In this document: positions 294 to 20,016 of the stretch, in pieces
How positions within the stretch are numbered: position 1 is the first letter of the stretch
Layout of the letters: every line of letters starts with the position of its first letter
IMG/VR virus record: IMGVR_UViG_3300015245_000002
Location: 19,745 to 83,744 of that record
Direction: 5' to 3' (one strand)
Source of the DNA: a virus
Length of the DNA: 64,000 bases
Notes under the pieces: model-generated
Database searches by the model: none
Seen by the model: the letters and a program-made list of their open reading frames with translations, nothing else
Told to the model about the DNA's origin: nothing
Program-made: the position numbers and the translations under genes

Positions 294-439
294 GTCGTCT
301 CTCCTTTGTCGGCCGTCGCTGGCGTCTGCTGCGCCCTCACGCCAGCCTCGAACCCTCGTCTGTGTGCCATCGCGAACAGGTACGTGTCCGCGATCCACAC
401 GGCGCCGACAGACACCGGAATCCACCACCAATGAATCAC
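290..439 (-). CDS. Small membrane protein (49 aa)
   Basis: MIHWWWIPVSVGAVWIADTYLFAM...; GTGA/ATGA overlaps with both neighbours. Confidence 0.55.
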   Translation of the reverse strand: MIHWWWIPVSVGAVWIADTYLFAMAHRRGFEAGVRAQQTPATADKGETT

Positions 440-684
440 GCCTCACCGCCATGTGGTCGCCCAGGCGTCAGCCAGCTCTGCGCCGCGATGGAAGCGGACA
501 AGCGGGCGTTCTCAGCCTCCAACTCGCAAACACGCCTCGCGGACCATTCCGCGCTGGCGAACCTCACCGCTGCCGCGAAGCGTTCCTCGCGGAGGTCGAT
601 GCGCAGCGCGGTGATGATGCGAGCCGATGACCGGATGGCTTGCAGCGCGACGAGGAGCGACAGGATGGCGAGGAGCGCGATCAT
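436..684 (-). CDS. Small protein with N-terminal hydrophobic helix and coiled coil
   Basis: ORF 436..684, MIALLAILSLLVALQAI; translationally coupled in operon. Confidence 0.6.
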   Translation of the reverse strand: MIALLAILSLLVALQAIRSSARIITALRIDLREERFAAAVRFASAEWSARRVCELEAENARLSASIAAQSWLTPGRPHGGEA

Positions 685-980
685 CAGGTGCCGCCCAGGA
701 TCCGAGAGATCACGGCGCGGGCTGCGTTGACCATAGACGTGTGTTTCCTGGACACGCTGTCGACGCAGCCGGCGACCGGGTTGTTACAGATCAGGCGATC
801 GGCGTATCTGAGCGCGTCGATGTCTGTGTCGGACAGTACAGATCGATCGTCGAGGCGTAACAGCAGTGCATCCCGCTCCGCCACCAACGCCGCGGCGACC
901 TGATGCGCATGATCGAGCTGAGCCGACATCTCCGCGACCGCCTGTACGTGTTCGCATCTCTCGTCGACGATGATAGTCAC
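684..980 (-). CDS. Hypothetical phage protein
   Basis: GTG at 980 overlaps TGA of upstream peptide gene (GTGA); MTIIVDERCEH... Confidence 0.6.
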   Translation of the reverse strand: MTIIVDERCEHVQAVAEMSAQLDHAHQVAAALVAERDALLLRLDDRSVLSDTDIDALRYADRLICNNPVAGCVDSVSRKHTSMVNAARAVISRILGGT

Positions 981-1231
981 TGCGGCTCCTCCGTGCCGCA
1001 CACGTCGCTGCCTCCGCCGCCGAGTGTGCCGCCGCCGCCGCCGGGCGGCCACGGACACACCGCTGGGCAACTCGCTCCGCCAGATCGACCGCCGCATCCG
1101 TCACTGCATGTGGCGTAGAAGGTGACCGGGACGGTCTGCGGTCCAGCGCCCCGCACGCCGCCAAGACTGGCAGACGCCAGGAGACGGATGGTGTCGGAAT
1201 TCAGGTGCAACTTCTTGTCGTGTCGCTTCAT
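977..1231 (-). CDS. RiPP (lanthipeptide-like) precursor peptide A1
   Basis: 29-aa leader MKRHDKKLHLNSDTIRLLASASLGGVRGA ending in GA double-glycine-type site; core with 5 Cys and 9 Ser/Thr; ATGA/GTGA coupling to both neighbours. Confidence 0.75.
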   Translation of the reverse strand: MKRHDKKLHLNSDTIRLLASASLGGVRGAGPQTVPVTFYATCSDGCGGRSGGASCPAVCPWPPGGGGGTLGGGGSDVCGTEEPQ

Positions 1232-1476
1232 TTGATCCCCATCGAGATTGTTTCAATCAGTTGCATGATCGGCACCCCTGTATTCCTGGAGCAAGCGGAC
1301 AACCTTGCGTACGTATCGCCCGACACCGATATGCTGCCGCGTGTGGATCGGTTGTGTGGCGATCGCTGCATCACGGCTCCGCACCGAGGACATGGCGCCG
1401 ATGGTGCAGCGAGCCCCAGGGTGCTGACGCTGATGCGCCCGTGACTGGGGCAAGTATATTTGGCCGGTCCGCTCAT
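1228..1476 (-). CDS. Zn-ribbon plus ribbon-helix-helix DNA-binding protein
   Basis: CPSH...CPRC then SISVSGDTYARLSACSRNTGVPIMQLIE (beta strand, helix, G, helix pattern). Confidence 0.6.
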   Translation of the reverse strand: MSGPAKYTCPSHGRISVSTLGLAAPSAPCPRCGAVMQRSPHNRSTRGSISVSGDTYARLSACSRNTGVPIMQLIETISMGIK

Positions 1477-1480
1477 GACG

Positions 1481-1735
1481 CTACGGAGATCCGCCGTTGC
1501 CGCAGTCGAGCGACGCAGCGTTGCACGTCGGCATGTTCACCGACATGAACTGGCACTGATTCGCTGTGCATGCAGCATCGAAGCTGTTGCAAGTCATGAC
1601 CCGCGAGCAGTCGCAGGTTGCACCGAACGTTGGGTTCGGCACGGATGCGCCGCCCCATGCCCTGCCGAGCTGCGGAGAGGTCAGTGAGCGGACCGCTTCT
1701 TTTCGAAGGTGTAGCCTTTGGGAGATCTTGTGCAT
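1481..1735 (-). CDS. RiPP (lanthipeptide-like) precursor peptide A2
   Basis: 29-aa leader MHKISQRLHLRKEAVRSLTSPQLGRAWGG ending in GG; core with 7 Cys and 11 Ser/Thr; AGAGGA RBS 4 nt before ATG. Confidence 0.75.
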   Translation of the reverse strand: MHKISQRLHLRKEAVRSLTSPQLGRAWGGASVPNPTFGATCDCSRVMTCNSFDAACTANQCQFMSVNMPTCNAASLDCGNGGSP

Positions 1736-1743
1736 GTTGTCCT

Positions 1744-2865
1744 CTAAAACGGTGAATCTGCCACTGGTTCGTCGTCAGTCGTGACGAGCTGCGGCTTGGT
1801 GTCGTATTCCTCGATCACTGTCGTAGACTTGCGCTCGGATCCGCCGGCGGCCCGAACCGCCTCGATCACGGCCTTCGCCGCGCCGCGCTTGCCCTTGAGC
1901 GCCGCGTCGAGCCGAGTCTTCGTGGCGACACGCGCGACCGCAGCGTCGGCCGTTGCTTGGTCGTGCAGCCGCTTGACGGTCTCGTAGACCACGTCACCGT
2001 CGAGCTTTTCGTTGCCGAGCTTGTGGTGCGGGCCGAATGTCTTGCCTAAGCGCAGTTGGATCGGTCGCTCAGCGGCCCGCGCATGCAACGCGGCGTTGAG
2101 CCTTGATACAACAATCTTGATCCGCTGCAGTAATTCATACGCCTCCGCCGCTTCGGTGTCGTCCTGGAACGGGATCATCGCTTCGATGCGTACCGCGATC
2201 TCTCCGGTTCCAGCCTGAATCGCGAGTGCTTTTTGTTCGGGGCACGACAAAAACGCGTGGCAGTATTTGCAGTGTGGTCCGGTACGCAACGTTTTGTCGG
2301 TTGAAATCAACATGTCCCGCAACCGAACGAAATGAGCGTCGAGTTCGAGCACGCCAAGTGTAGCGATGTCAGCAGGAAGCCACGACGCACCGAGATAGAC
2401 GATTGCTACGGTGACCTCGTCACGACCAGAAGCTCGAGCAACCGCGAGCGCTGCGCATGCGAGCTGCCGGTTGTCGGCTGCGGACGTGACTCGCTCAAAG
2501 CCCTTGTAGTCCACGACGAGGATTCGCCGCTCGCCGTAGACGATCAGGTCAATCGTCCCAGGGATCTCGAACGGTCGAAGTCCGGTGTAGTCGCGCCATG
2601 CGATGTGACCAAGAGCGCGCGCCGTGTCGTCGCTGGTGTCGATCGCCATGGCACATTCAGCCGACAGAACATCGCCGGGCTCGAGGAGCTTGCGTACCTG
2701 CCACGGAAGATCTTCGTTCGCGCCAAGCACCACCGCCGCTTCCGCATCCCCGTGCCGATCGTTGCCCTGATCAGCATACGTCGTGTGGTAGTCGTGCTGC
2801 GGCAGGTGAGCGGAGCCTGGGCATGCCAGGACGCGCTCCACGGACGAAAACGAATGACGGATCAT
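1744..2865 (-). CDS. PD-(D/E)XK exonuclease, Cas4/RecB-like (recombination)
   Basis: N-terminal SFSSVERVLACPGS, GTIDL...VVDYKG catalytic motif, QL motif, C-x2-C-x5-C cluster (HCKYCHAFLSCP); start at ATG 2865. Confidence 0.88.
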   Translation of the reverse strand: MIRHSFSSVERVLACPGSAHLPQHDYHTTYADQGNDRHGDAEAAVVLGANEDLPWQVRKLLEPGDVLSAECAMAIDTSDDTARALGHIAWRDYTGLRPFEIPGTIDLIVYGERRILVVDYKGFERVTSAADNRQLACAALAVARASGRDEVTVAIVYLGASWLPADIATLGVLELDAHFVRLRDMLISTDKTLRTGPHCKYCHAFLSCPEQKALAIQAGTGEIAVRIEAMIPFQDDTEAAEAYELLQRIKIVVSRLNAALHARAAERPIQLRLGKTFGPHHKLGNEKLDGDVVYETVKRLHDQATADAAVARVATKTRLDAALKGKRGAAKAVIEAVRAAGGSERKSTTVIEEYDTKPQLVTTDDEPVADSPF

Positions 2866-2867
2866 GG

Positions 2868-3179
2868 CTACGGCGCCTCGGTCCAGGAGCTCGGCGCCTC
2901 TTGGTCCACGACGAGTCTGTCGTGATGTTCCAGCGCGTCGCACAGCACGCCAATCACCTCTCCTTCGTTGCGCATGGCGATCGCCTTTCTGACCGCCTGC
3001 AGTACGACGCGCGCTGCATCGAGCTCGTTCATGATCGAGCGCAGCGCGTTCGATGCCTCGCCTTGCGGAGGATGCCAATGTTCGTCGTATCGCAGGATGC
3101 TGACCCTATAGTCACCAGATGGGACGACGAAGGTGAACTTGCCTCCATCAACACGGACACGGCGATCCTGATTGTTCAC
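2868..3179 (-). CDS. Hypothetical phage protein
   Basis: 103-aa ORF packed between nuclease and recombinase. Confidence 0.65.
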   Translation of the reverse strand: MNNQDRRVRVDGGKFTFVVPSGDYRVSILRYDEHWHPPQGEASNALRSIMNELDAARVVLQAVRKAIAMRNEGEVIGVLCDALEHHDRLVVDQEAPSSWTEAP

Positions 3180-4054
3180 GACACCTCACCCGTGCTTGCG
3201 TCGGATTGCGTCACGGGGACCACAGGCGGCATCGCTTCGACCGATGACGAACCGCCTGATGTAGGGCGCCGCTTGAGGTCTGCCACCTTGGCCTTGTACT
3301 TCGCGTTGATCGCCTCGTACGCGGGATGTCCGGGCTTGAGCCCGCGCTTGGAAAAGCGATTGGCAATCACTTGGCATTCGGACATCGAGTCTGCGACGTC
3401 CAGTTCGGCGAACTCCTGGTAGTCGCTGGTGTTGAACGGCGGTGGAGTCGTTTGTGCGTCGGTGAACTCGGCGTCGATGACATCGGATTGCGTAGCGGCG
3501 GATGAAGCCTGCGCCACAGTGCTCGGCTCGCGATCGGCGATCTCGTCACTGGTGAAGCAGCCAGCGAGCACGTCCGGGTAAACGTCGCGTGCGAGCTCTG
3601 ACTTCGCACGCGACGCCAGCATTGCGCGCGGAAAGGTCCGCCAGTTGTCCTTCTGGTGCAGCGCCGCTGACTTGGCCATCTCGATCGTCCACGTGCACTT
3701 CTGCTCGGGCTCTCCTCGGCGCTTCGTCACGTACGTGACGCTCCTGTCGGTCCCCTCGCCGGAACGGCGGAAGTACTCCGCCTTGCCACTGCCGAGCACG
3801 ACCGCGACCATGGCGTCTGCGGTCATCACCGGCTTGCCAGAGATGATGTTGAAGCTACGTAGCGACGCCATCGAGTACAGGCCGAGTTCCTGACCGGCCA
3901 TGATCTGCATCAGGACGTCTGGAACCTTGCCCTTGAGGGCGTCGGGCAGTAGGGAGGACTTCGCAAGACGTTCCGCGAGGTCAATCACTTCGGCGAGGGT
4001 GCGCGGAACGATAACCGTCGTAGTCTGGCGGACCAGTGCGTTTTCTTCGCTCAC
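3176..4054 (-). CDS. RecT-like single-strand annealing protein
   Basis: LPDALKGKVPDVLMQIMAGQELGL..SLRSFNIISGKP and W..FPRAML..RA....ARDVYPDVLAG motifs; next to exonuclease and SSB. Confidence 0.85.
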   Translation of the reverse strand: MSEENALVRQTTTVIVPRTLAEVIDLAERLAKSSLLPDALKGKVPDVLMQIMAGQELGLYSMASLRSFNIISGKPVMTADAMVAVVLGSGKAEYFRRSGEGTDRSVTYVTKRRGEPEQKCTWTIEMAKSAALHQKDNWRTFPRAMLASRAKSELARDVYPDVLAGCFTSDEIADREPSTVAQASSAATQSDVIDAEFTDAQTTPPPFNTSDYQEFAELDVADSMSECQVIANRFSKRGLKPGHPAYEAINAKYKAKVADLKRRPTSGGSSSVEAMPPVVPVTQSDASTGEVS

Positions 4055-4662
4055 CGCAGCACCTTGGCGATCTGCGCGACGGTGCGGTCATACGCTGACG
4101 AGCAGGAGATGAACGGGATCGCATCCTCGTCACCCGGCGGCGGAATGTCATCCGATGGCGGCGCCCCACTGTACATCTGACCGCTCTGACCGCCGGCGTC
4201 TTCCGCCAGTGCGGCACGCAGGGCAGCGTCGGAATCGGTCAGGTTCTCCTGGCTCGACGCCTTGAGTGGCGCCGGACCGCGACCGATGCTGTTCGGCTTC
4301 ACCCAGATCGGCGCAGGCCCAACCCTGCCGCCGCGGTCCCACTCGTCAAACCTCTTCCCCCTCCTCATCTCAATGTGCTTGATCTCGATGGTCGACTCGC
4401 CGCCGGTTGCCTTGACCCATTCTGCGACATCGCTCTCGATCGTGGCCAGCGTCTGGCATTTCCAGCCAACCGCCTTGCAGGTCCGCGCGATGTACGGCGC
4501 CTGCTTGTTGTTAACCGCCTCTTCGTACGTGTACATCTTCCCTTTGTGCTCACCCTTGGTGATCTCGACATTGATCCGAACCACCGGGATATTGCGACTG
4601 TCGTCTCCGTAAAAACCGTCGAGAACTTTGCATGGCCAAAAACCAGCTGCGATATCTGACAT
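4051..4662 (-). CDS. Phage ssDNA-binding protein (DUF669/gp2.5-like)
   Basis: Start ATG 4662; OB-fold-like N-terminus (INVEITKGEHKGK), acidic tail DDIPPPGDEDAIPF; position in recombination module. Confidence 0.65.
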   Translation of the reverse strand: MSDIAAGFWPCKVLDGFYGDDSRNIPVVRINVEITKGEHKGKMYTYEEAVNNKQAPYIARTCKAVGWKCQTLATIESDVAEWVKATGGESTIEIKHIEMRRGKRFDEWDRGGRVGPAPIWVKPNSIGRGPAPLKASSQENLTDSDAALRAALAEDAGGQSGQMYSGAPPSDDIPPPGDEDAIPFISCSSAYDRTVAQIAKVLR

Positions 4663-5896: not shown

Positions 5897-6262
5897 TCAT
5901 GGATTTCTCTCGATCTCTGTCGTGTCAGGCGGGACATTCGGCCACTGATCCGCGAGTGGCCGGTCGATGGACCATGGGTAATAAGTCTCACCGTGGGTCA
6001 ACATCGAAAGCCATCCCTCGGTATCGATCCACGCGTCGAGGGCATACCCGACCCGCGCGAGAGTTCTGGCTATGTGATCGATAGTCTCCGCGGCATCCGA
6101 GTCATTGCTCGGGACAATACCCTTGGTGGCTCCGCATCTACAACTGTAGCCGATCCAGAGATCGGACAGATCACCGGTATACTGGTACAGCGAACTCTCG
6201 AAATCGGTGCTAGTTCCATCGGCATAGGCGTACGACCACCGATGACTACACTTATCAGTCAC
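5897..6262 (-). CDS. Hypothetical phage protein
   Basis: 121-aa ORF with C-x-H and C-x-C residues, coupled to neighbour. Confidence 0.55.
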   Translation of the reverse strand: MTDKCSHRWSYAYADGTSTDFESSLYQYTGDLSDLWIGYSCRCGATKGIVPSNDSDAAETIDHIARTLARVGYALDAWIDTEGWLSMLTHGETYYPWSIDRPLADQWPNVPPDTTEIERNP

Positions 6263-8035: not shown

Positions 8036-8462
8036 TGGTCGACGACACTACCGCAGTGAGCGATTTTGTCACAATGCCTCGTGCGATTTCTTTTTGCGCC
8101 ACCCCGTCGATCACATCCAGGGCTTCTGCTCTGGCAGCGTGTGCCGCAAGTTCCTCCTGTGCGCGACGTACAACAGCGAGCATTTCGGATGCCGCGCGTT
8201 CCGTCGGCGCGATGAAAAACGGAGGTGGTACGCCGAGCGCCGCGCTGATTCCGTTGGCGAGGGCCACGCTTCGACCGACACCGTCCTTGAATTTCGAGAT
8301 CGAATCAGACTTCCACTCATGACCGTTCGGTCGTCCAGCATGCGCGCTTGCAGCGCGTGCAATATCTGCGTTCTTGATCGAAGGGCTGTCGAGCAGTGGG
8401 ATCGCCTTGCGGAGCCACCACTCAGGTAGATCCGGGTTACCGGCTCGCTCTTTCCTAGACAT
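7974..8462 (-). CDS. CI-like XRE-family HTH repressor
   Basis: NADIARAAS...WKSDSISKFKDG..RSVALANGISAALGVPP HTH pattern; divergent from Cro-like gene; TAATAT -10 six nt before ATG (leaderless, as lambda cI). Confidence 0.72.
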   Translation of the reverse strand: MSRKERAGNPDLPEWWLRKAIPLLDSPSIKNADIARAASAHAGRPNGHEWKSDSISKFKDGVGRSVALANGISAALGVPPPFFIAPTERAASEMLAVVRRAQEELAAHAARAEALDVIDGVAQKEIARGIVTKSLTAVVSSTNGDPHGGSGVRARGTRRGRS

Positions 8463-8507
8463 TACAAAATATTACGCGATGACGCGTGGCTACAGGATAC
8501 ATGACCA

Positions 8508-8536
8508 TTGACGTTGCACGGTGCACACTGTACAAC
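8508..8536 (+). promoter_or_regulatory. PR-like promoter with overlapping operator
   Basis: TTGACG 8508-8513, 17 nt, TACAAC 8531-8536; operator TGCACACTGTACA 8522-8534. Confidence 0.72.
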
Positions 8537-8544
8537 GAACAGAG

Positions 8545-8814
8545 ATGTCGGATCCGAGAGATGCCCTTCGCGCTGCGATGCGCGATCGGGGCTACACGCA
8601 CGAGCGACTGCTGCTTGAATCGGGCCTGAAATGCGATCTAAGCTCCCTGAACCGCAAGCTAAACGGCGGTCAGGGACTCGAAGCACATGAGGCACGTGAT
8701 CTTGCACGCGTACTCGGCGTGCGCGTCGCCGGCATCGACCGCATGCTGGCGCTGGCCGACACCATCGGCGCCATTGCGACGTGGCCCGCGGATCGAAGGA
8801 GAGGTGAGTCATGA
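8545..8814 (+). CDS. Cro-like XRE-family HTH regulator
   Basis: LRAAMRDRGYTHERLL...DLSSLNRKLNG...EARDLARVLGV. Confidence 0.8.
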   Translation: MSDPRDALRAAMRDRGYTHERLLLESGLKCDLSSLNRKLNGGQGLEAHEARDLARVLGVRVAGIDRMLALADTIGAIATWPADRRRGES

Positions 8815-9029
8815 TCGTAGGCGAAACAAGTAGCCACCCGGGCGATGGTCCACAACAGGACCATGCGTACAGTGCAACCGGAAAGCAATCCGGAGTGTTG
8901 TGGTCGGTCGTCGCGGCGTACGTCGCGATCGTCGCCCTCGGACCGCACGACATTGCCTGGCTCGCTCTGGTCGGCGTGTCGTTGTCTGCCACGGCTCTAC
9001 TGATCGTCATCCTGGACCGGGACGCATGA
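8811..9029 (+). CDS. Small membrane protein
   Basis: Two hydrophobic segments, ATGA overlaps. Confidence 0.55.
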   Translation: MIVGETSSHPGDGPQQDHAYSATGKQSGVLWSVVAAYVAIVALGPHDIAWLALVGVSLSATALLIVILDRDA

Positions 9030-9826
9030 CGCCGGAAGACGTAATCGTGAGGATGAGCAGACTCAGAGTTCCGCTCGCGCATGTCGCGGCGCATCTGGCC
9101 ATGCACGATCGGATCTCGATCGCCGCAGCGGCTCGCATCGTCGCGGATCTGACAGGCGAGCGCGTCATGGCAGCTGCTGCTGTCGCGGCGTGGCGGAAGC
9201 TGTACCCAGGTCGCCGGCCATTCGACCGCGAGCTACGTCCGCGATCGTCCAATTCGCAGTCGGCTAAGGCCGTCGAGTGGATCGAGGCCAACGGCGGGTC
9301 GCTGACCGACGGTGCACTTAGGTTCGGCGTCACCGCACAGTCAGTGTCTCGGCGCTGGCATCGGGTCCACGGGGACACTCCGACGCCGCTGGGACAGCGC
9401 AGCGCCCGGGTACGAGTCGAGGTGGTCGAGCTGCTACGGCGAGGCATGAGCCTGCGAACTGCGGCCCGCGTCGTTGGGACCTCGCACAGCACTGCGGAGC
9501 GGTTCGCGAAAGCCGCTGGAGTCTCCACGGTAGAGATTGCTGCGCAGCGGAGAGCGGAGGTCCGCCAGCGGATCGTCGCGGAACTGGCTGCTGGAGCGAC
9601 CCTGCAGGATGCCGGGATCAACGCTGGCGTCTCTCGTCGCCTCGCGACGTGCCTCGCCGCCGAGGCCGGCGTCCGTCCTGCAGCACGGAGCAGCCGCCGC
9701 GACGGGTGCATGGCTCGCGCAGTAGCGCTGGTCCACGGCGGGATGAGCGTGGTGGCGGCTTGTAGGTCCGAGCGCTGCTCGGAGACGGGCGTGTACATCA
9801 GGACCAGGGAATTGAGGCAGAGGTGA
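9026..9826 (+). CDS. Multi-HTH DNA-binding protein (paralog 1)
   Basis: About five tandem HTH-like units (e.g. GMSLRTAARVVGTSHSTAERF); start ATG 9026. Confidence 0.7.
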   Translation: MTPEDVIVRMSRLRVPLAHVAAHLAMHDRISIAAAARIVADLTGERVMAAAAVAAWRKLYPGRRPFDRELRPRSSNSQSAKAVEWIEANGGSLTDGALRFGVTAQSVSRRWHRVHGDTPTPLGQRSARVRVEVVELLRRGMSLRTAARVVGTSHSTAERFAKAAGVSTVEIAAQRRAEVRQRIVAELAAGATLQDAGINAGVSRRLATCLAAEAGVRPAARSSRRDGCMARAVALVHGGMSVVAACRSERCSETGVYIRTRELRQR

Positions 9827-11913: not shown

Positions 11914-12170
11914 AGGCCCCCGGCAGACGCACTCGCGAAGATGCAGCCCTGATATGTGCGGTCGCAGAGAGCACGTTCGCCGGCATGGGATACCGCGCGA
12001 TCGGAAGGTGGCTCAATGTCAGCAGAGCTGCGTGCGATCTTGCCATCAGCGCCGAGTCGGCAGTGTTTGACGTATCCGTCGATGGCACACAAGGCGATGC
12101 AGAGGCCGAATCTCTACTGCGCTGCGGCTGGTGCCCTGGTGATCTGATCGAGCGCAGGGGTGCGAAATGA
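11910..12170 (+). CDS. Hypothetical phage protein
   Basis: 86-aa ORF, ATGA coupling. Confidence 0.55.
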   Translation: MKAPGRRTREDAALICAVAESTFAGMGYRAIGRWLNVSRAACDLAISAESAVFDVSVDGTQGDAEAESLLRCGWCPGDLIERRGAK

Positions 12171-12523
12171 CCCCGCTCGCGCTCCACCGCGCCGAGGTCC
12201 GCCGTCTACGGGCCAGCGGCTACCACACCACGAGTCGGGTCCGAGTCGCGGTCCGCTACGCCGTGATCATGGACTGCTCCATCACCGAGGCGGCTCGTGT
12301 CCTCGGGGTCTCCGCCGGCGGCGTCTGGCATGCCTGGGATCGGATGTTCCCGGATCTACCGCATCCGCTGGAACCAGCGGGCCGGGCCGGACGCGGTGAG
12401 TACGCGCTCGAGCTCGTCGACAGTGGCATGTCCACGCGGGCCGCAGCCGCTACAGCCCGCGTGTGCGTTCAGACCATTTACGGCGCGCGATCGAGACGAC
12501 GCGCGGAAGCGCGGGGGACGTGA
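12167..12523 (+). CDS. Multi-HTH DNA-binding protein (paralog 2)
   Basis: CSITEAARVLGVSAGGVWHAW and GMSTRAAAATARVCVQTIY HTH units. Confidence 0.65.
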   Translation: MTPLALHRAEVRRLRASGYHTTSRVRVAVRYAVIMDCSITEAARVLGVSAGGVWHAWDRMFPDLPHPLEPAGRAGRGEYALELVDSGMSTRAAAATARVCVQTIYGARSRRRAEARGT

Positions 12524-12702
12524 AGCCGCTGCGCAAGATCGCCAGCGACGCGGTTCGTTTCTTCTCTAAGACCATGCGATCCGGCAATGGCCGTCTCGAG
12601 TGGATCGGCGGGATCGTTCGCGCTACCGCAATTCACATGGGGATATCGCCACCCACAGCATATGGTGCCGTGGGTGGTGCAAACTGGAAGTATGTAAAAT
12701 GA
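12520..12702 (+). pseudogene. HNH homing endonuclease remnant (catalytic core deleted)
   Basis: RFFSK...G.LEW.G N-terminus joined directly to GISPPTAYGAVGGANWKYV C-terminal HTH end; no HNH motif between. Confidence 0.5.
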
Positions 12703-13268
12703 GTAGCGCCTACAGCGTAATCGTCGCAGATCCACCTTGGGCACCGCGCGACAAGTTGCCTGGCAAGACCCGCGGCGCGGCCAAGCAGTACCGTGTGCTA
12801 TCGACGCCGCAGATCTGCTCGTTCCTCGTCGACAACAGCGTCCGGGTCGCCGATAACGCGCTGCTGTTCCTCTGGAGGATCGCCAGCATGCAGCGCGACG
12901 CGCTGGACGTCGCGCTGGCCTGGGGGTTCGACGTCAAGGCCGAGTTCGTGTGGCGCAAGCTGACGCGGACCGGAAAACCGCACTTCGGCATGGGCCGATA
13001 CGTCCGCAACGGTCACGAGGTGTGCCTGATCGGTGCACGCGGTCAGGCGGCCAAGTTGATCGCCAGCCACAGCGTGCGATCGGTGTTCGAGGCGTCGGTG
13101 CCAGCCGACGCAGACGGCAAGATCATCCACAGCAAAAAGCCCGAGGCGTTCTGGACCGAGGTCGTCGAGCCGCTGACCACCGGCTACGGCATCGAGCTGT
13201 TTGCGCGCACACGGCGACTCGGCTGGGACGCGATCGGCGATCAACTACCCGCGCAGGAGGCCACATGA
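12699..13268 (+). CDS. MT-A70 family adenine methyltransferase
   Basis: YSVIVADPPW, LFLW, WGF, FGMGRYVRNGHE, HSKKPE, IELFAR...GWDAIGDQ. Confidence 0.93.
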   Translation: MSSAYSVIVADPPWAPRDKLPGKTRGAAKQYRVLSTPQICSFLVDNSVRVADNALLFLWRIASMQRDALDVALAWGFDVKAEFVWRKLTRTGKPHFGMGRYVRNGHEVCLIGARGQAAKLIASHSVRSVFEASVPADADGKIIHSKKPEAFWTEVVEPLTTGYGIELFARTRRLGWDAIGDQLPAQEAT

Positions 13269-16266: not shown

Positions 16267-17600
16267 CCGCGCTTCGTCCATATCAGGAGCGCGCGATCGA
16301 AGCGCTCCGCCGCAGTTACACCAGCGGACGCCGCGCACCTTGCCTCGTTCTTCCCACCGGATCAGGGAAAACGGTCATCGCGGCCACGATCATATCCGGC
16401 GCTCAGGCGCGCGGAAACAGGGCACTATTCGTCGCGCCGCGTCGCGAGCTCATTCAACAGACCGTCCGCAAACTAGCCGACGCAGGGATCTGGGATGTGC
16501 GGGTAATCCAGGCGTCGAACGACACCGGTCGGCCCGACGCCCCGGTGATCGTTGGCTCGATTCAGACCCTGACCATGGCGCGCTGGCTCGGCCAACTCCC
16601 ACCGGCCGAGCTCGTGATCCCGGACGAATGCCATCATCTAGTCTCCGATCACTGGAGTAAACTGGCCGCCGCTTATCCACAGGCGCGCTGGCTCGGGCTC
16701 ACCGCGACACCAGAGCGCAGCGATGGCCGGCCGCTGGGCGATGTCTTCGACGATCTGATCGTCGGCGCTTCGGTTCGCGAGCTCATGGAACTCGGCTACC
16801 TCGTCCCATGCCGCGTCTTCGCGCCGCCAGAGGCGCTCGAAACCGCACAGCTCGCAACCGATCCGGTCGCGGCATATATGACTTATGGCGAAGGCGGCAG
16901 AGCCATCGTGTTCTGCGTCACCGTGGATCACGCGACCCAGGTCACCGCCGCGTTCATCGCCGCAGACATTCCGGCCGGCCTGGTCACCGGATCCTGCGCA
17001 GTTGCAGATCGCTCCAGTGTTCTGCAGCGCTTCTCCGCTGGCGAACTCCGGGTCTGCGTCAACGTCAACGTGTTGACCGAAGGCTTCGACGATCCGCCGG
17101 TGTCGTGCTGCATCCTGGCCCGCAAACCACAACACGCTGGCACGTTTTTGCAGATGGTCGGCCGCGTACTGCGCCCCGCGCCGGGCAAATCCAGAGCAAC
17201 CGTCGTAGATCTCTGCGGCTCGGTACACGAACATGGTCCTCCTGACCTGGAACGCGAATACAGCCTTGACGGCAAGGCGATCAGCGGCGTCGGGCGCATT
17301 CCGATACGGCAGTGTCCGAGCTGTGGATGTGTGTTTCGCGCCGGACCGCAGGCATGTCCGGAATGCGGAACACAACTGCCCGCGCATGTCGTAGAGTCGC
17401 CACGATCGGTCGGTGTCGGGCTCGTCGATATCGCCACGTTGCCCCGCGCGCTAAAACGCGTCTATACCTTGTCAATCACGGCGAAATTCCCCGGTAGGTG
17501 CCATAAGTGCACCGGATCTATCGATCCTGGTCAGCAAATCTATTGGGCCAAAGGCGAGAAACCACGACACGTCGAGTGCCGTAACGCGGAGGCTGTATGA
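16263..17600 (+). CDS. SF2 DEAD/DEAH-box helicase with C-terminal Zn ribbons
   Basis: LRPYQ, LPTGSGKT, DECHH, GLTATPER, LTEGFD, QMVGRVLR; CPSC..CPEC; GTG start 16263. Confidence 0.95.
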   Translation: MTALRPYQERAIEALRRSYTSGRRAPCLVLPTGSGKTVIAATIISGAQARGNRALFVAPRRELIQQTVRKLADAGIWDVRVIQASNDTGRPDAPVIVGSIQTLTMARWLGQLPPAELVIPDECHHLVSDHWSKLAAAYPQARWLGLTATPERSDGRPLGDVFDDLIVGASVRELMELGYLVPCRVFAPPEALETAQLATDPVAAYMTYGEGGRAIVFCVTVDHATQVTAAFIAADIPAGLVTGSCAVADRSSVLQRFSAGELRVCVNVNVLTEGFDDPPVSCCILARKPQHAGTFLQMVGRVLRPAPGKSRATVVDLCGSVHEHGPPDLEREYSLDGKAISGVGRIPIRQCPSCGCVFRAGPQACPECGTQLPAHVVESPRSVGVGLVDIATLPRALKRVYTLSITAKFPGRCHKCTGSIDPGQQIYWAKGEKPRHVECRNAEAV

Positions 17601-17950
17601 GCCGCTCTCAGCAAGAAACGTTGATCATGGATCAGATCCGGCTCGCCCTGGGCCGAGATCCCGGTGTGCTGTTGTTCCGGAACAACATCGGTTCAGCGCA
17701 GATGCACGGTGGGTTCCGCGTCACTTTTGGTGTCGGCGGCCCTGGCGGAGCGGATTTACTGGGCATTCTCGACGCGCGCCCGCTGGCCATCGAGGTAAAA
17801 TCCGCCACCGGGCGGCAGTCACCGGAGCAGCGGCGTTTTCAGGTCCTGTGGGAAGCGCGCGGTGGGATCTATCTGATGCCGCGCAACGTCGACGAAGCGG
17901 TTGCTCAGGTATCCGATGCACGGTCCGCGTCTCGCGCCGGCGGCCAGTAA
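17597..17950 (+). CDS. VRR-NUC domain nuclease
   Basis: FRNN.G, G.ADL.G, AIEVKS.TGR.SPEQ..F, GG.Y. Confidence 0.9.
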   Translation: MSRSQQETLIMDQIRLALGRDPGVLLFRNNIGSAQMHGGFRVTFGVGGPGGADLLGILDARPLAIEVKSATGRQSPEQRRFQVLWEARGGIYLMPRNVDEAVAQVSDARSASRAGGQ

Positions 17951-20016
17951 TGGTCACGATCAGTCGCTTCGTCGGGCTGCTGAAGACGGACGCCGAGGCC
18001 ATTCAGATCGATCTGGATCAATGGCTGGACTCGCTCGCGCTCGAGCCCAGCGAGGACTACTCGGGGCAGTTCTACCATCCCGGTTGGAGCCCGGTGCTCT
18101 ACGACCCGCCGAAACGGGCCGCATCGAACGTGCGCCATGTCTATGCGCTCGTACTTGATCACGATGACGGCGCGACATGGAATTCCCTCGCGACGCTCTG
18201 GCAGCAAAGTGCCGGCGTTATCTACACGACGAAGTCTCACACCGCCGATAAGCCTAGATACCGAGTTATCCTTGCGCTGTCGAGACCTGTGTCCCCACTT
18301 GAGTACGCCAAGATTTGGCGCTGGGGGGCGGATCGCAGCGCCGCCGCGAGTTGCCCCGTGGACGAGCAGTGCAAGGACGTGTCCCGGTTCTGGTATGACC
18401 CCACCACGCCGCCAGGTGGCTGGCGCGCGCAGCGCCTGAGCGGATCCGCGACCGATCCGGACGTTATCCTCGCCGCCGCACCTGCGCCGCCGCAACTTCG
18501 CGTCGTCAGGACTCAGGCCACACCGACACCCGATGACAAGATCCGTCGAGCTCGTGCCTATCTCGCCAAGATCCCCGGCGGAGTCAGTGGTTCATCTGGT
18601 CACACCGCCACGTTCAACGCCGTGGCGGCGGTCCTTCTCGGGTTTGACCTCTCAGAACCAGACGCGCTGCGCTTGATTACCGAGGACTATAATCCGCGCT
18701 GCGATCCACCATGGTCAGAGAAAGATTTACAACACAAGATTTCATCTGCAGCTCAGCGCTGCAAGCGCGAGCGTGGTTATCTGCTCACCGACAGGAGCCG
18801 GGTATCAGACACCAGATCTGCCGCGGCTCAGGCCCCGCAGCCCGCCGAAGATCTGGACGTTGACTGGGCATCAAAACTTCTGGTCTCGGACAAAAATAAG
18901 ACACGCAAGGCATATTACAACACCGCATTATTCGTCAGGCATCACCCAGAGTTCCGCGGCAGATGGTCCATGGATCTAATGACGAGACTGCCCTGGTTCG
19001 ATGACACTGTCATGGATCCGTCGATGGTGCACCATATCCGCGGTCAGGCCGACTGCAGGCTCGGCTACACGCCACCGGCAACCGACGTCGAGGCTGCGAT
19101 CGTATCTGCGGCAATGGATCGCCAGTTTCACCCGATCCGGCAATACCTGCGCTCATTGGACTGGGATGGTGAGCCGCGACTGTCAGCCATGGCACGCGAT
19201 TACTTCGATAGCGATGATGCACTCCACTCCACCATGCTCCGTATGTTCATGATCGGGGCTGCGGCCCGGGCCCTGTGGCCCGGCTGTAAGCATGACACCG
19301 CATTGATGCTGGTCGGCGCTCAGGGCACCCGGAAATCTACGTTTTTCAAGATTCTGGGTGGGTCATGGCACAGTGATACCTATCTAGATCTGGGGAATCA
19401 TCGAGACGCGACCATGCAGCTTCATGGCGCATGGATCTATGAACTGTCTGAGCTCGAAAACGTACTGGCCGGCAAGGCCGAGTCCCGGATGAAGGCCTGG
19501 ACCTCCTCGACTCACGACAATGTCAGACTGCCGTATATGAAGACTACCTCGCAGCTCGCACGCGGCACCGTACTCGCCGGTACCACGAACCGAACCCGGT
19601 TCCTGACCGACGAGACCGGATCGCGACGAAGTTGGATCATCCCGGTTACGGGGATGATCCCGTTTCAACTGCTCGAGTCCTGTCGCGATCAGTTGTGGGC
19701 CGAGGCGTGCGCGGCGGCAGAAGCAGGCGAGCCATGGTGGCTGGACGGATCCGACGACCGCGCGCGCGAGGACCGGAATCAGGCCTATATTGACGAAGAT
19801 TCATGGGAAGAGATTATCGCCCTCTGGACCGTTGGGCGTGAGATCACTTCAATGTCTGAAACACTTTCAGAGGCACTAAAGCTTGATGTAGGTAAACATG
19901 ATAGATCATCGCAGATGAGAGTGGCGAAAGCGCTCAGGAGGTTGGACTGGGTCAGGCGTCGGCGCGGGGGCATTTGGGTGTACGAAAGGACCATTGCCAG
20001 TAACGTGCCATCATGA
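17950..20016 (+). CDS. Primase-helicase: N-terminal primase domain plus VapE-like P-loop NTPase
   Basis: LDHDDG and YTTKSH...RYR primase motifs; YNPRCDPPWSEKDL linker domain; FHPIRQYL..L.WDG, PGCK.D, GAQGTRKST Walker A, GTTN...L.D.TGSRR. Confidence 0.9.
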   Translation: MVTISRFVGLLKTDAEAIQIDLDQWLDSLALEPSEDYSGQFYHPGWSPVLYDPPKRAASNVRHVYALVLDHDDGATWNSLATLWQQSAGVIYTTKSHTADKPRYRVILALSRPVSPLEYAKIWRWGADRSAAASCPVDEQCKDVSRFWYDPTTPPGGWRAQRLSGSATDPDVILAAAPAPPQLRVVRTQATPTPDDKIRRARAYLAKIPGGVSGSSGHTATFNAVAAVLLGFDLSEPDALRLITEDYNPRCDPPWSEKDLQHKISSAAQRCKRERGYLLTDRSRVSDTRSAAAQAPQPAEDLDVDWASKLLVSDKNKTRKAYYNTALFVRHHPEFRGRWSMDLMTRLPWFDDTVMDPSMVHHIRGQADCRLGYTPPATDVEAAIVSAAMDRQFHPIRQYLRSLDWDGEPRLSAMARDYFDSDDALHSTMLRMFMIGAAARALWPGCKHDTALMLVGAQGTRKSTFFKILGGSWHSDTYLDLGNHRDATMQLHGAWIYELSELENVLAGKAESRMKAWTSSTHDNVRLPYMKTTSQLARGTVLAGTTNRTRFLTDETGSRRSWIIPVTGMIPFQLLESCRDQLWAEACAAAEAGEPWWLDGSDDRAREDRNQAYIDEDSWEEIIALWTVGREITSMSETLSEALKLDVGKHDRSSQMRVAKALRRLDWVRRRRGGIWVYERTIASNVPS

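What the first reader, a model, noticed from the sequence alone, without database searches (positions are those of the whole stretch)
977..1735. Phage-encoded pair of orphan RiPP (lanthipeptide-like) precursor peptides in the early operon
Seen: two 84-aa ORFs whose first 29 residues align without gaps (MKRHDKKLHLNSDTIRLLASASLGGVRGA / MHKISQRLHLRKEAVRSLTSPQLGRAWGG) and end in GA/GG; their 55-aa cores start with a shared VP(x)xTFxATC motif, end in xxCG, and carry 5 Cys + 9 Ser/Thr and 7 Cys + 11 Ser/Thr. Both have good translation signals (AGAGGA RBS; ATGA coupling) and lie in the repressor-controlled leftward operon after the recombination genes. Known: KKLxLxxxTIRxL...LxxVxGG leaders with Cys/Ser/Thr-rich cores typify lanthipeptide-type precursors, double-glycine sites are cut by C39 peptidase transporters, and such precursors normally sit beside their synthetases. 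No LanB/C/M/KC, radical SAM, YcaO or transporter gene occurs in these 64 kb. Inference: the phage supplies substrates for the host's RiPP machinery, to make a phage-specified modified peptide (signal for lysis/lysogeny or toxin) or to act as a decoy that titrates a host RiPP/defence pathway.
Basis: partly seen in the sequence, partly recalled or inferred. Interest (0 to 1): 0.92.

Follow-up and report, generated by a model that had tools for sequence, protein, structure and literature searches.

The report
Phage-borne orphan lanthipeptide-type precursor peptides
A complete soil phage genome carries three small genes for peptides whose front part matches the leader of bacterial lanthipeptide precursors, yet has no enzyme to modify, cut or export them, so they probably depend on the host's machinery; their function is untested.

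Summary
Both 84-codon ORFs exist as described and are tightly coupled in one operon behind the Exo/RecT genes.

- **More copies.** A third copy lies outside the window. Two other complete or near-complete phage genomes carry 2 and 3 such genes.
- **Family.** A profile of the phage leaders finds 895 small proteins (E<=0.001) among 1.84 billion. Of the 39 I aligned, 25 match NCBIfam NF038153, the class I lanthipeptide leader with the LxLxKx5L...GG motif. A profile built only from bacterial members picks the five peptides of this phage and its relative G002 as the top hits among 2,650 phage ORFs.
- **Bacterial context.** In bacteria, mostly Acidobacteriota, the family sits beside LanC, LanB and C39 transporters far more often than chance. 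Most copies, though, are dispersed orphans, up to 58 or more per genome.
- **Phage context.** The phage genomes hold no LanB, LanC-like, C39 or radical SAM gene. This phage also has no YcaO or ABC ATPase gene.

The "orphan precursor using host machinery" reading is supported by context only. The Myxococcota host and the signal or decoy roles are untested, and the host is unresolved. This scan noted the same phenomenon before on other phage DNA, including the related phage. I found no paper on it.

The parts
1481..1735 (-). P2: 84-aa precursor-like peptide. It has a 29-aa leader with an exact LxLxKx5L motif ending in GG, and a 55-aa core with 7 Cys and 11 Ser/Thr.
   Evidence: ORF. RBS AGAGGA 4 nt upstream. 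Bacterial-only leader profile E 7.9e-5. NF038153 gives 12-13.8 bits, below the cut-off of 22. No close homologue among 5.8 billion proteins.
1228..1476 (-). 82-aa Zn-ribbon plus ribbon-helix-helix protein between the two peptide genes, translationally coupled to both.
   Evidence: Weak Pfam/NCBIfam hits: Zn_ribbon 0.009, RHH_3 0.011, HVO_2523 1.5e-4, all below cut-off. ATGA overlap with P1. A 39%-identical RHH protein (49 aa, E 5.5e-5) lies two genes upstream of a family peptide in the unrelated phage G809.
977..1231 (-). P1: 84-aa precursor-like peptide. The leader ends in GA. The 55-aa core is Gly-rich (16 Gly) with 5 Cys and 9 Ser/Thr.
   Evidence: ORF. Bacterial-only leader profile E 2.1e-8. 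57% identical over 83 aa, core included, to metagenomic protein P0008 (E 1e-20). ESM Atlas nearest cluster: 83 aa, PF28317 Lant_leader_dom on 63% of 57 members, score 0.87, a lead only.
684..980 (-). Next ORF of the operon (98 aa from the GTG that overlaps P1's stop), no known family.
   Evidence: GTGA overlap read. No Pfam or NCBIfam hit for the longer 684-1097 form.
1744..3078 (-). PD-(D/E)XK / DUF2800 exonuclease, the gene directly upstream of P2 (context).
   Evidence: PF10926 9.1e-14 and PF12705 8.7e-6. 74-88% identical in the related phages L006, L007 and L008.
3176..4054 (-). RecT-like recombinase (context; used to find related phages).
   Evidence: PF03837 3e-4. 57-77% identical in three IMG/VR contigs.

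Best explanation
P1 and P2, with a third copy P3 outside the window, are real phage genes. They encode divergent members of the LxLxKx5L...GG leader family of class I lanthipeptide precursors (NCBIfam NF038153 lant_leader_L1a). Each has a conserved about 29-residue leader and a hypervariable Cys/Ser/Thr-rich core.

The phage has no enzymes of its own. The most likely mechanism has three steps, all inferred:
1. The host's LanB/LanC-type enzymes recognise the leader and install dehydrations and thioether rings.
2. A host C39-peptidase ABC transporter cuts after GG/GA.
3. The same transporter exports the product.

The infected or induced cell would thus release phage-specified peptides. The host lineage is presumed to be one that already runs many dispersed precursors of this family on a few synthetases.

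- **Shown:** gene reality, family membership, the family's link to LanB, LanC and PCAT in bacteria, orphan status in three phage genomes, and recurrence of such genes in phages.
- **Inferred:** recognition, modification, cleavage, export and the biological role (bacteriocin-like weapon or signal).
For: **Family.**
- A profile of four phage leaders found 895 proteins at E<=0.001 among 1.84 billion. The best non-phage E-value was 1.8e-9.
- All 48 sequences I read are small leader-plus-Cys/Thr-core peptides. Two of them carry two units in tandem.
- 25 of 39 aligned members hit NF038153 at E<=0.01; P0007 scores 33 bits against a cut-off of 22.
- An HMM of 88 bacterial peptides ranks the five peptides of G000 and G002 first among 2,650 ORFs.
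- Walker et al. 2020 (PMC7268733, passages read) describe class I LanAs with LxLxKx5L leaders ending in GG, often with a C39 protease in the cluster.

**Bacterial context.** 76 of 80 pattern-found loci hold 97 such peptides.

| Neighbour | Loci of 76 | Expected | Binomial p |
|---|---|---|---|
| LanC-like | 8 | about 1.0 | 9e-6 |
| LanB | 3 | about 0.2 | 1e-3 |
| C39-ABC | 6 | about 0.2 | 8e-8 |

**Whole genomes.** Five genomes hold 26, 58, 1, 23 and 6 copies, with 1-5 LanB and 1-13 LanC-like genes each.

**Phage side.**
- 0 of 4 phage records hold LanC-like, LanB, C39 or radical SAM.
- The own genome has no YcaO and no ABC ATPase.
- Three phage genomes carry 3, 2 and 3 copies.
- P1's core is conserved in P0008 (57% identity).
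Against: - **Below the curated cut-off.** Neither peptide reaches the NF038153 cut-off: P2 scores 12-13.8 bits against 22, and P1 has no hit. The phage leaders are divergent, and P1 has Ser where the motif has Lys.
- **Weak bacterial link.** Only 7 of 114 family copies in five bacterial genomes lie within 10 kb of LanB or LanC (my reading of the coordinates). About 60 of 76 loci show no RiPP enzyme within the 8-kb locus. For most members the link to lanthipeptide enzymes is therefore itself an inference.
- **Host unknown.** It is not shown that the host has such enzymes.
- **Expression.** The genes sit in an early lytic-type operon with no promoter of their own found. That leaves little time for maturation and export.
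- **Missing data.** There are no expression or chemistry data.
Confidence: 0.55

Rival explanations
1. The peptides are unmodified double-glycine-leader peptides. A host C39 ABC transporter only cuts and exports them, and the Cys-rich cores fold by disulfides (class II bacteriocin or pheromone style). No lanthionine chemistry is involved.
For: - The leaders have GG/GA with hydrophobic residues at -4, -7, -12 and -15 (read).
- C39-ABC transporters lie in 6 of 76 bacterial loci, two of them verified by Pfam.
- Most family copies have no Lan enzyme nearby.
- P1's core is Gly-rich (16 of 55) and P3's core has a single Cys. Both are poor material for many thioether rings.
Against: - LanC-like and LanB genes are enriched beside family members.
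- NCBI curates the leader as a class I lanthipeptide leader.
- Cys and Ser/Thr co-occur in nearly all cores read.
Confidence: 0.2
2. The peptides act inside the cell as decoys. Their leaders occupy the host's LanB/LanC (or C39) recognition sites and so blunt a host lanthipeptide pathway, for instance an anti-phage one.
For: - Class I lanthipeptide clusters with anti-phage function exist in Actinobacteria (10.1101/2024.06.26.600839, abstract and outline read).
- The genes lie in an early operon.
- The phage leaders diverge from the bacterial consensus: 12-34 bits, against about 25-56 for bacterial members.
- There are several copies per phage.
Against: - P1's core is conserved with P0008 (57% identity over the full length). 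A pure leader decoy would not need that.
- The cores keep the Cys/Ser/Thr make-up of substrates.
- No anti-phage role is known for this leader family or in these phyla.
- Nothing was tested.
Confidence: 0.1
3. The genes are passenger DNA picked up from hosts rich in such genes. They have no function for the phage, or are not translated.
For: - The cassette is variable. It is absent behind the 88%-identical exonuclease of L006 and absent from the complete related phage G003.
- P2 has no close relative.
- Bacterial genomes hold dozens of copies that could be captured.
Against: - The genes show tight translational coupling and an RBS, and high GC3.
- All eight phage copies have intact leaders.
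- Such genes recur in three phage genomes.
- P3 and one G809 copy both lie between a g11-like gene and the amidase gene, although the amidases are only 45% identical.
Confidence: 0.08
4. The peptides and the RHH protein form a self-contained regulatory module of the phage, with small proteins acting on DNA or on the RHH protein. The leader-like N-terminus would be used for something other than RiPP maturation.
For: - A Zn-ribbon/RHH gene is coupled between P2 and P1.
- P3 is followed by an RHH/NikA-like gene (PF21983, 6.8e-6).
- A homologous RHH gene lies near a family peptide in G809.
Against: - The bacterial family has no such partner among its neighbours. No RHH family appears among the 25 commonest of 151 families in 96 neighbour proteins.
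- Small RHH genes are common in phage early regions anyway.
- The leaders match an export/modification leader family.
Confidence: 0.05

Closest known systems
Class I lanthipeptide precursors with LxLxKx5L...GG leaders (NCBIfam NF038153 lant_leader_L1a; described for Bacteroidetes, pinensin family I-17, in Walker et al. 2020, PMC7268733)
   Same: - The leader architecture matches: the Lys/Arg-rich start, LxLx(K/R)x5L, and GG or GA about 29 residues in.
- The cores are hypervariable and Cys/Ser/Thr-rich.
- Bacterial members retrieved with the phage leaders hit NF038153 (25 of 39) and lie beside LanB, LanC and C39-ABC genes.
   Different: - The phage copies score below the curated cut-off.
- They are encoded in phage genomes with no LanB, LanC or C39 gene.
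- The bacterial relatives found here are mostly Acidobacteriota (61 of 80 loci by record title), not Bacteroidetes.
- I could not see the paper's supplementary logos or family lists, so membership in family I-17 itself is not checked.
Prochlorosins (many dispersed ProcA precursors served by one promiscuous LanM, ProcM)
   Same: - There are tens of precursors per genome with a conserved leader and hypervariable cores, most far from any synthetase. The five whole genomes hold 26, 58, 1, 23 and 6 copies, and 7 of 114 lie within 10 kb of LanB or LanC.
- PMC7268733 notes that prochlorosin precursors are encoded far from their LanM.
   Different: - The leader type differs: L1a rather than Nif11/NHLP.
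- The enzymes differ: class I LanB/LanC and stand-alone LanC-like proteins rather than ProcM.
- The phyla differ.
- That one enzyme serves many substrates is not shown here.
- I found no report of phage-borne prochlorosin genes (one paper holds both words, and neither word stands in its title or abstract; I did not read its text).
Double-glycine-leader bacteriocins and pheromones exported by peptidase-containing ABC transporters (PCATs)
   Same: Both have a GG/GA cleavage motif with hydrophobic -4/-7/-12/-15 positions. PCAT genes lie next to some bacterial family members.
   Different: The leader has the extra N-terminal LxLxKx5L box, typical of enzyme recognition. There is no PCAT or ABC ATPase in the phage.
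Prophage-encoded complete RiPP or bacteriocin clusters
   Same: A temperate phage (integrase present) carries bacteriocin-type peptide genes.
   Different: Those prophages carry the whole cluster: precursor, modifying enzyme, transporter and immunity. Here only the precursors are phage-borne.

Membership tests
Class I lanthipeptide precursor, L1a leader (NF038153) | The leader scores at or above the curated cut-off of the NCBIfam model (22 bits). | tested here: not met
   P2 scores 12 bits (E 0.18) full length and 13.8 bits (E 0.048) for residues 1-45. P1, P3 and P4 have no hit at E<=10. Bacterial relatives do pass, for example P0007 at 33 bits.
Class I lanthipeptide precursor, L1a leader (NF038153) | The leader is homologous to family members by an independent profile. 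| tested here: met
   An HMM of 88 bacterial peptides was run against 2,650 phage six-frame ORFs. Scores: P4 2.9e-9, P1 2.1e-8, P2 7.9e-5, P5 8.8e-5, P3 0.019, next best 2.2. The reverse search from the phage leaders found 895 proteins.
Class I lanthipeptide precursor, L1a leader (NF038153) | LxLx(K/R)x5L box, and a GG-type end of the leader. | tested here: met
   P2 has the box exactly and ends in GG. P1 has Ser at the K/R position and ends in GA. P3 has LxVxRx5L and GG (sequences; motif from PMC7268733).
Class I lanthipeptide precursor, L1a leader (NF038153) | The core holds both Cys and Ser/Thr for (methyl)lanthionine rings. | tested here: met
   P1 has 5 Cys and 9 Ser/Thr. P2 has 7 Cys and 11 Ser/Thr. 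P3 has 1 Cys and 4 Ser/Thr.
Class I lanthipeptide precursor, L1a leader (NF038153) | Encoded in a cluster with LanB and LanC. | tested here: not met
   There are 0 matches to PF04738 and PF05147 in G000, G002, G003 and G809. The same searches found both families in five bacterial genomes.
Class I lanthipeptide precursor, L1a leader (NF038153) | Dehydrated residues and thioether rings in the mature product. | not testable with these tools
   This needs co-expression and mass spectrometry.
PCAT-exported double-glycine peptides | GG/GA site with hydrophobic residues at -4, -7, -12 and -15. | tested here: met
   Read from the sequences. P1 has V, L, L, I and P2 has A, L, L, V at these positions.
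PCAT-exported double-glycine peptides | A cognate C39-ABC transporter is encoded nearby. | tested here: not met
   PF03412 gave 0 matches in four phage records. PF00005 gave 0 matches in G000. A PCAT is present in 6 of 76 bacterial loci.
Prochlorosin-like system (many precursors, few enzymes) | Many dispersed precursors with one leader type in a genome that has few synthetases. | tested here: met
   This holds for candidate host-type bacteria, not for the phage. The five genomes have 26, 58, 1, 23 and 6 copies against 3, 2, 5, 1 and 1 LanB genes and 13, 13, 6, 7 and 1 LanC-like genes.
Prochlorosin-like system (many precursors, few enzymes) | Nif11/NHLP-type leader and a ProcM-type LanM. | tested here: not met
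   The leader matches NF038153, and 3 of 39 also match TIGR04149. No Nif11/NHLP model appears among the four families hit.

The most novel reading that the evidence does not exclude
Temperate soil phages carry their own small repertoires (2-3 per genome) of lanthipeptide-type precursors. The host's promiscuous class I machinery matures and exports them, so the virus reprograms which natural products the infected cell or lysogen releases. The product could be a weapon against non-lysogens or competing phages' hosts, or a phage-to-phage signal. The recurring RHH gene next to the peptides would be the module's own regulator.
Probability: 0.3. Interest if true: 0.85.

Novelty: new variant of a known kind. 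Interest (0 to 1): 0.62.

Why it matters
RiPP precursors are thought of as parts of bacterial gene clusters. Suppose phages routinely carry only the substrate genes and rely on host enzymes. Viruses would then be both vectors for diversifying lanthipeptide cores and users of host secondary metabolism. That would be a new type of auxiliary gene.

The idea is directly testable by co-expression and mass spectrometry.

The work also shows that a few Acidobacteriota genomes hold dozens of dispersed class-I-type precursors. This is a prochlorosin-like situation outside cyanobacteria. It would explain how an orphan phage copy could find an enzyme.

Tried and rejected
**Genomic context of the closest relative**
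- Close homologues of P2: none among 5.8 billion proteins. P1 has only P0008.
The metagenome scan returned only a spurious low-complexity match, L132. The viral scan found nothing.

**Searches for more phage copies**
- The search for related loci with the three-peptide alignment found nothing in viral contigs.
- With P1+P4 it found only the related phage again.

**Neighbour analysis**
- Pkinase neighbours (5 of 96) looked like possible LanKC or LanL enzymes. The five I scanned are ordinary Ser/Thr kinases with TPR, PD40 or no LanC domain, so class III/IV was rejected.
- Several about 1,000-aa neighbours are unrelated proteins: TonB receptor, BNR/sortilin, histidine kinase.
- The lipoproteins before P4 (G002) and before G809's third peptide look alike by eye. 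tblastn gave no match at E<=1e-3, so I make no claim.

**Host search**

| Query | Sample | Result |
|---|---|---|
| Portal | 401 Acidobacteriota | 1 hit, 36% identity |
| Portal | 401 Myxococcota (stricter filter) | 0 hits |
| Exonuclease | 401 Thermoanaerobaculia-class genomes | 0 hits |
| Exonuclease | 401 Myxococcota | 1 hit, 32% identity |

- Isolate phages match at 35% identity or less, or not at all.
- No tRNA gene was found.
- The host is unresolved.

**Other checks**
- Promoter and terminator scans near P2-P1 and P3 found nothing.
- The local Pfam copy has no model for this leader: 0 of 39 members match.
- Sequencing runs: none was listed and no RNA holder was listed.
- Complex prediction (LanB with the P1 leader) was not available.
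- Literature searches for phage-borne lanthipeptide or RiPP precursors found none. Supplements of PMC7268733 were not seen.
Full report
**What is in the sequence.**
- Their first 29 residues align without gaps, 10 of 29 identical. BLASTP of the pair gives 38% identity over 60 residues, E 9e-6.
- The cores are 55 residues, with 5 Cys + 9 Ser/Thr (P1, also 16 Gly) and 7 Cys + 11 Ser/Thr (P2).
- The genes are packed into one leftward operon. The stop of a PD-(D/E)XK/DUF2800 exonuclease gene lies inside an AGAGGA box 4 nt before P2's ATG.
- Four bases after P2's stop starts an 82-codon Zn-ribbon/ribbon-helix-helix ORF (weak hits). Its TGA overlaps P1's ATG. P1's TGA overlaps a GTG that opens a further 98-codon ORF.
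- GC3 is 0.74-0.75 in the peptide frames.
- No sigma-70-like promoter or terminator was found in 300-3300. The peptides are therefore most simply co-transcribed with Exo/RecT.

**The genome and further copies.**
- The window is bases 19745-83744 of an 83,744-bp IMG/VR virus record with direct terminal repeats, rated complete. It encodes an integrase, so the phage is probably temperate.
- A third gene of the same kind (P3, 47 aa) lies outside the window at G000 5989-6132(-). It has a GGAG box 7 nt upstream and is followed by an RHH/NikA-like gene.
- RecT found three related phage contigs.
  - G002 (76 kb, 97% complete) carries two such peptides, P4 of 60 aa and P5 of 53 aa, at other positions.
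  - G003 (complete) carries none.
  - L006 is an 8-kb fragment whose exonuclease is 88% identical. Behind that gene it has a 53-aa and a 476-aa ORF instead of the P2-RHH-P1 cassette.
- An otherwise distant complete phage, G809 (58.4 kb, 69% GC over the 12-kb locus L134), carries three copies. It shares with this phage only an amidase (45% identity) and one small domain among the pieces compared.
- Together that makes eight phage-borne copies in three genomes.

**What family it is.**
- A profile of four phage leaders plus about 15 core residues was run against 1.84 billion representative proteins. It gave 895 proteins at E<=0.001. The best hits outside the phages scored 1.8e-9 to 1e-8.
- The 48 I read are all small. 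Each has a Lys-rich start, L-x-L-N-R-E-T-(I/V/L)-R-x-L, a GG (sometimes GA) about 29 residues in, and a hypervariable Cys/Thr/Ser-rich tail. Two carry two such units in tandem.
- Of 39 aligned sequences (34 of these hits plus 5 phage peptides), 25 match NCBIfam NF038153 lant_leader_L1a ("class I lanthipeptide") at E<=0.01. Three match TIGR04149.
- The local Pfam copy has no model for this leader: 0 of 39 match.
- The phage peptides themselves are divergent. P2 reaches only 12-13.8 bits against the cut-off of 22, and the others do not hit.
- As an independent test I built an HMM from 88 peptides taken only from named bacterial genomes and searched 2,650 six-frame ORFs of phage DNA. The five peptides of G000 and G002 are the five best hits: 2.9e-9, 2.1e-8, 7.9e-5, 8.8e-5 and 0.019. 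The next ORF scores 2.2.
- Walker et al. 2020 (PMC7268733, passages read) describe this leader type. It occurs in class I LanAs with LxLxKx5L instead of FxLD, often ending in GG, with a C39 protease often in the cluster. P2 has that box exactly. P1 has Ser at the Lys position.

**Where the family lives and what sits next to it.**
Eighty loci were listed.
- By record title, 61 are Acidobacteriota: 34 Thermoanaerobaculia or Thermoanaerobaculaceae, 23 labelled Acidobacteriota or Acidobacteria, and 4 Holophagae-type. Three are Myxococcota, 3 Eisenbacteria, 5 unnamed bacteria and 8 other.
- The leader HMM confirmed 97 peptides in 76 of the 80 loci. Two of these loci (L055, L072) look like chance hits.
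- Among 96 of the 119 nearest large neighbour ORFs, Pfam counted LANC_like in 4, Lant_dehydr_N in 2, and Peptidase_C39 plus ABC domains in 2. I did not scan the other 23.
- All-against-all BLAST of all 438 ORFs of 120 aa or more in the 76 loci gave three relevant clusters:
  - nine LanC-like proteins in 8 loci, five verified by Pfam;
  - six C39-ABC transporters, two verified;
  - three LanB proteins, two verified.
- Given the density of these genes in two of the genomes, chance would give about 1.0, 0.2 and 0.2 loci. The binomial p values are 9e-6, 8e-8 and 1e-3.
- The five protein-kinase neighbours that I scanned are ordinary Ser/Thr kinases, not class III/IV synthetases.
- About 60 of the 76 loci show no RiPP enzyme inside the 8-kb locus.

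**Whole genomes.**
- The five whole genomes hold at least 26, 58, 1, 23 and 6 family copies. Only 150 of about 250-300 candidates were scored per genome.
- They hold 3, 2, 5, 1 and 1 LanB genes, 13, 13, 6, 7 and 1 LanC-like domains, and 2-3 C39 domains.
- By my reading of those coordinates, only 7 of the 114 copies lie within 10 kb of LanB or LanC: 3 of 26, 3 of 58, 1 of 1, 0 of 23 and 0 of 6.
- The family therefore behaves like the prochlorosins. Many dispersed precursors stand against few enzymes, and being an orphan is normal.
- Across even samples the family is patchy. It occurs in 8 of 171 Acidobacteriota genomes (this count includes the centre genome and one genome flagged unpublished, G160) and in 6 of 171 Myxococcota genomes at E<=1e-6. 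Only 37 candidates were scored per genome, so these are floors.

**The phages have no enzymes.**
- Six-frame family searches found no LanC-like domain (which also covers LanM, LanKC and LanL), no LanB, no C39 and no radical SAM in G000, G002, G003 or G809.
- G000 also has no YcaO and no ABC ATPase.
- The LanB and LanC searches worked on the five bacterial genomes.
- Pfam and NCBIfam scans of the 8 ORFs around the finding, and Pfam scans of 20 larger ORFs elsewhere in G000, showed ordinary phage functions only.

**Signs that the phage copies are kept for a reason.**
- P1 is 57% identical over its whole length, core included, to one metagenomic protein, P0008 (E 1e-20).
- P3 in G000 and one G809 copy both lie between a g11-like gene and the amidase gene, although the amidases are only 45% identical.
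- An RHH protein 39% identical to the one between P2 and P1 (49 aa, E 5.5e-5 in a small search space) lies two genes upstream of another G809 copy. P3 too is followed by an RHH gene.
- These are hints, not proof. Small RHH genes are common in phage early regions.

**Host.** The host is unresolved. Portal and exonuclease searches gave one distant hit each in samples of 401 genomes: 36% identity in Acidobacteriota and 32% in Myxococcota. The other two samples gave none. Isolate phages are 35% identical or less. There is no tRNA gene.

**Mechanism.**
- Shown: the genes are real, belong to the L1a leader family, are orphans, and recur in phages. In bacteria the family is linked to LanB, LanC and PCAT genes.
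- Inferred: in a host that already serves many dispersed precursors, the phage leaders are recognised by LanB/LanC, the cores are dehydrated and cyclised, and a C39 transporter cuts after GG/GA and exports the product.
- I put this at 0.55.
- Rivals:
  - export without modification (0.2);
  - an intracellular decoy of a host lanthipeptide pathway (0.1). Anti-phage class I lanthipeptides exist in Actinobacteria (10.1101/2024.06.26.600839, abstract and outline read);
  - passenger DNA (0.08);
  - an RHH-linked regulatory role (0.05).

**Novelty.**
- I found no paper on phage-borne orphan lanthipeptide precursors. I read passages of PMC11118758 and PMC12360287; they treat host RiPPs against phages, not phage-encoded precursors.
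- Complete bacteriocin clusters on prophages are known (recalled, not checked here).
- This scan has noted the same phenomenon before on other DNA. One search lists notes from at least 8 genomes, including the related phage G002 (e1-6075024, e1-6075025). Those are unchecked AI notes. I reached P4 and P5 independently.

**Limits.**
- Loci are 8-kb stretches not centred on the peptide.
- Supplements of the papers could not be seen.

Noticed in passing
L011 (G000) 17266-18321(-), 16835-17269(-), 16590-16838(-); outside the window: The phage encodes a 351-aa membrane protein with a weak single-Cache hit and a HAMP domain but no output domain. It overlaps by 4 nt a Cro/C1-type HTH gene, which in turn overlaps a small one-TM/coiled-coil ORF (ORFs). 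A phage sensor next to a repressor-like gene could matter if the peptides are signals. This is pure speculation.
   Followed up: no
L136 2702-2893(-) in phage G809; window 1228-1476(-): Homologous RHH proteins (39% identity over 49 aa, E 5.5e-5) lie in the same operon as family peptides in two otherwise distant phages.
   Followed up: partly
G005 (unnamed Acidobacteriota chromosome, 7.7 Mb), whole genome: At least 58 dispersed L1a-type precursor genes lie in one genome that has only 2 LanB and 13 LanC-like genes, six of the latter in about 1,100-aa LanM-sized frames. This is a prochlorosin-like expansion outside cyanobacteria.
   Followed up: partly
L030, L038, L058, L059, L064, L085, L090, L091: Stand-alone LanC-like genes of about 430-460 aa lie directly beside family peptides, with no LanB inside the 8-kb locus. 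In the Eisenbacteria loci (L059, L064) a C39-ABC transporter is present too. LanB may lie further away, or the cyclase may work with another partner.
   Followed up: no
P0004 (168 aa) and P0005 (132 aa), metagenomic proteins: Two family members carry two complete leader-plus-core units in tandem in one ORF.
   Followed up: no
L011 (G000) 8427-9440(-) and 12009-12752(-); outside the window: The phage also encodes an RNA-ligase-family protein (PF09414, 1e-11) and a 247-aa pentapeptide-repeat protein (PF00805, 7.7e-41).
   Followed up: no
L007 3865-4203(+) with 4214-4396(+); L137 1489-1836(+) with the peptide that follows: In G002 and in G809 one family peptide directly follows a Cys-rich lipoprotein gene. 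The two lipoproteins look alike at their C-termini by eye, but tblastn gave no match at E<=1e-3.
   Followed up: partly
window 436-684(-) and L011 16590-16838(-): Two 82-aa ORFs both start with a hydrophobic segment followed by a coiled-coil-like Arg/Glu/Ala-rich tail. They may be paralogues. I did not compare them.
   Followed up: no
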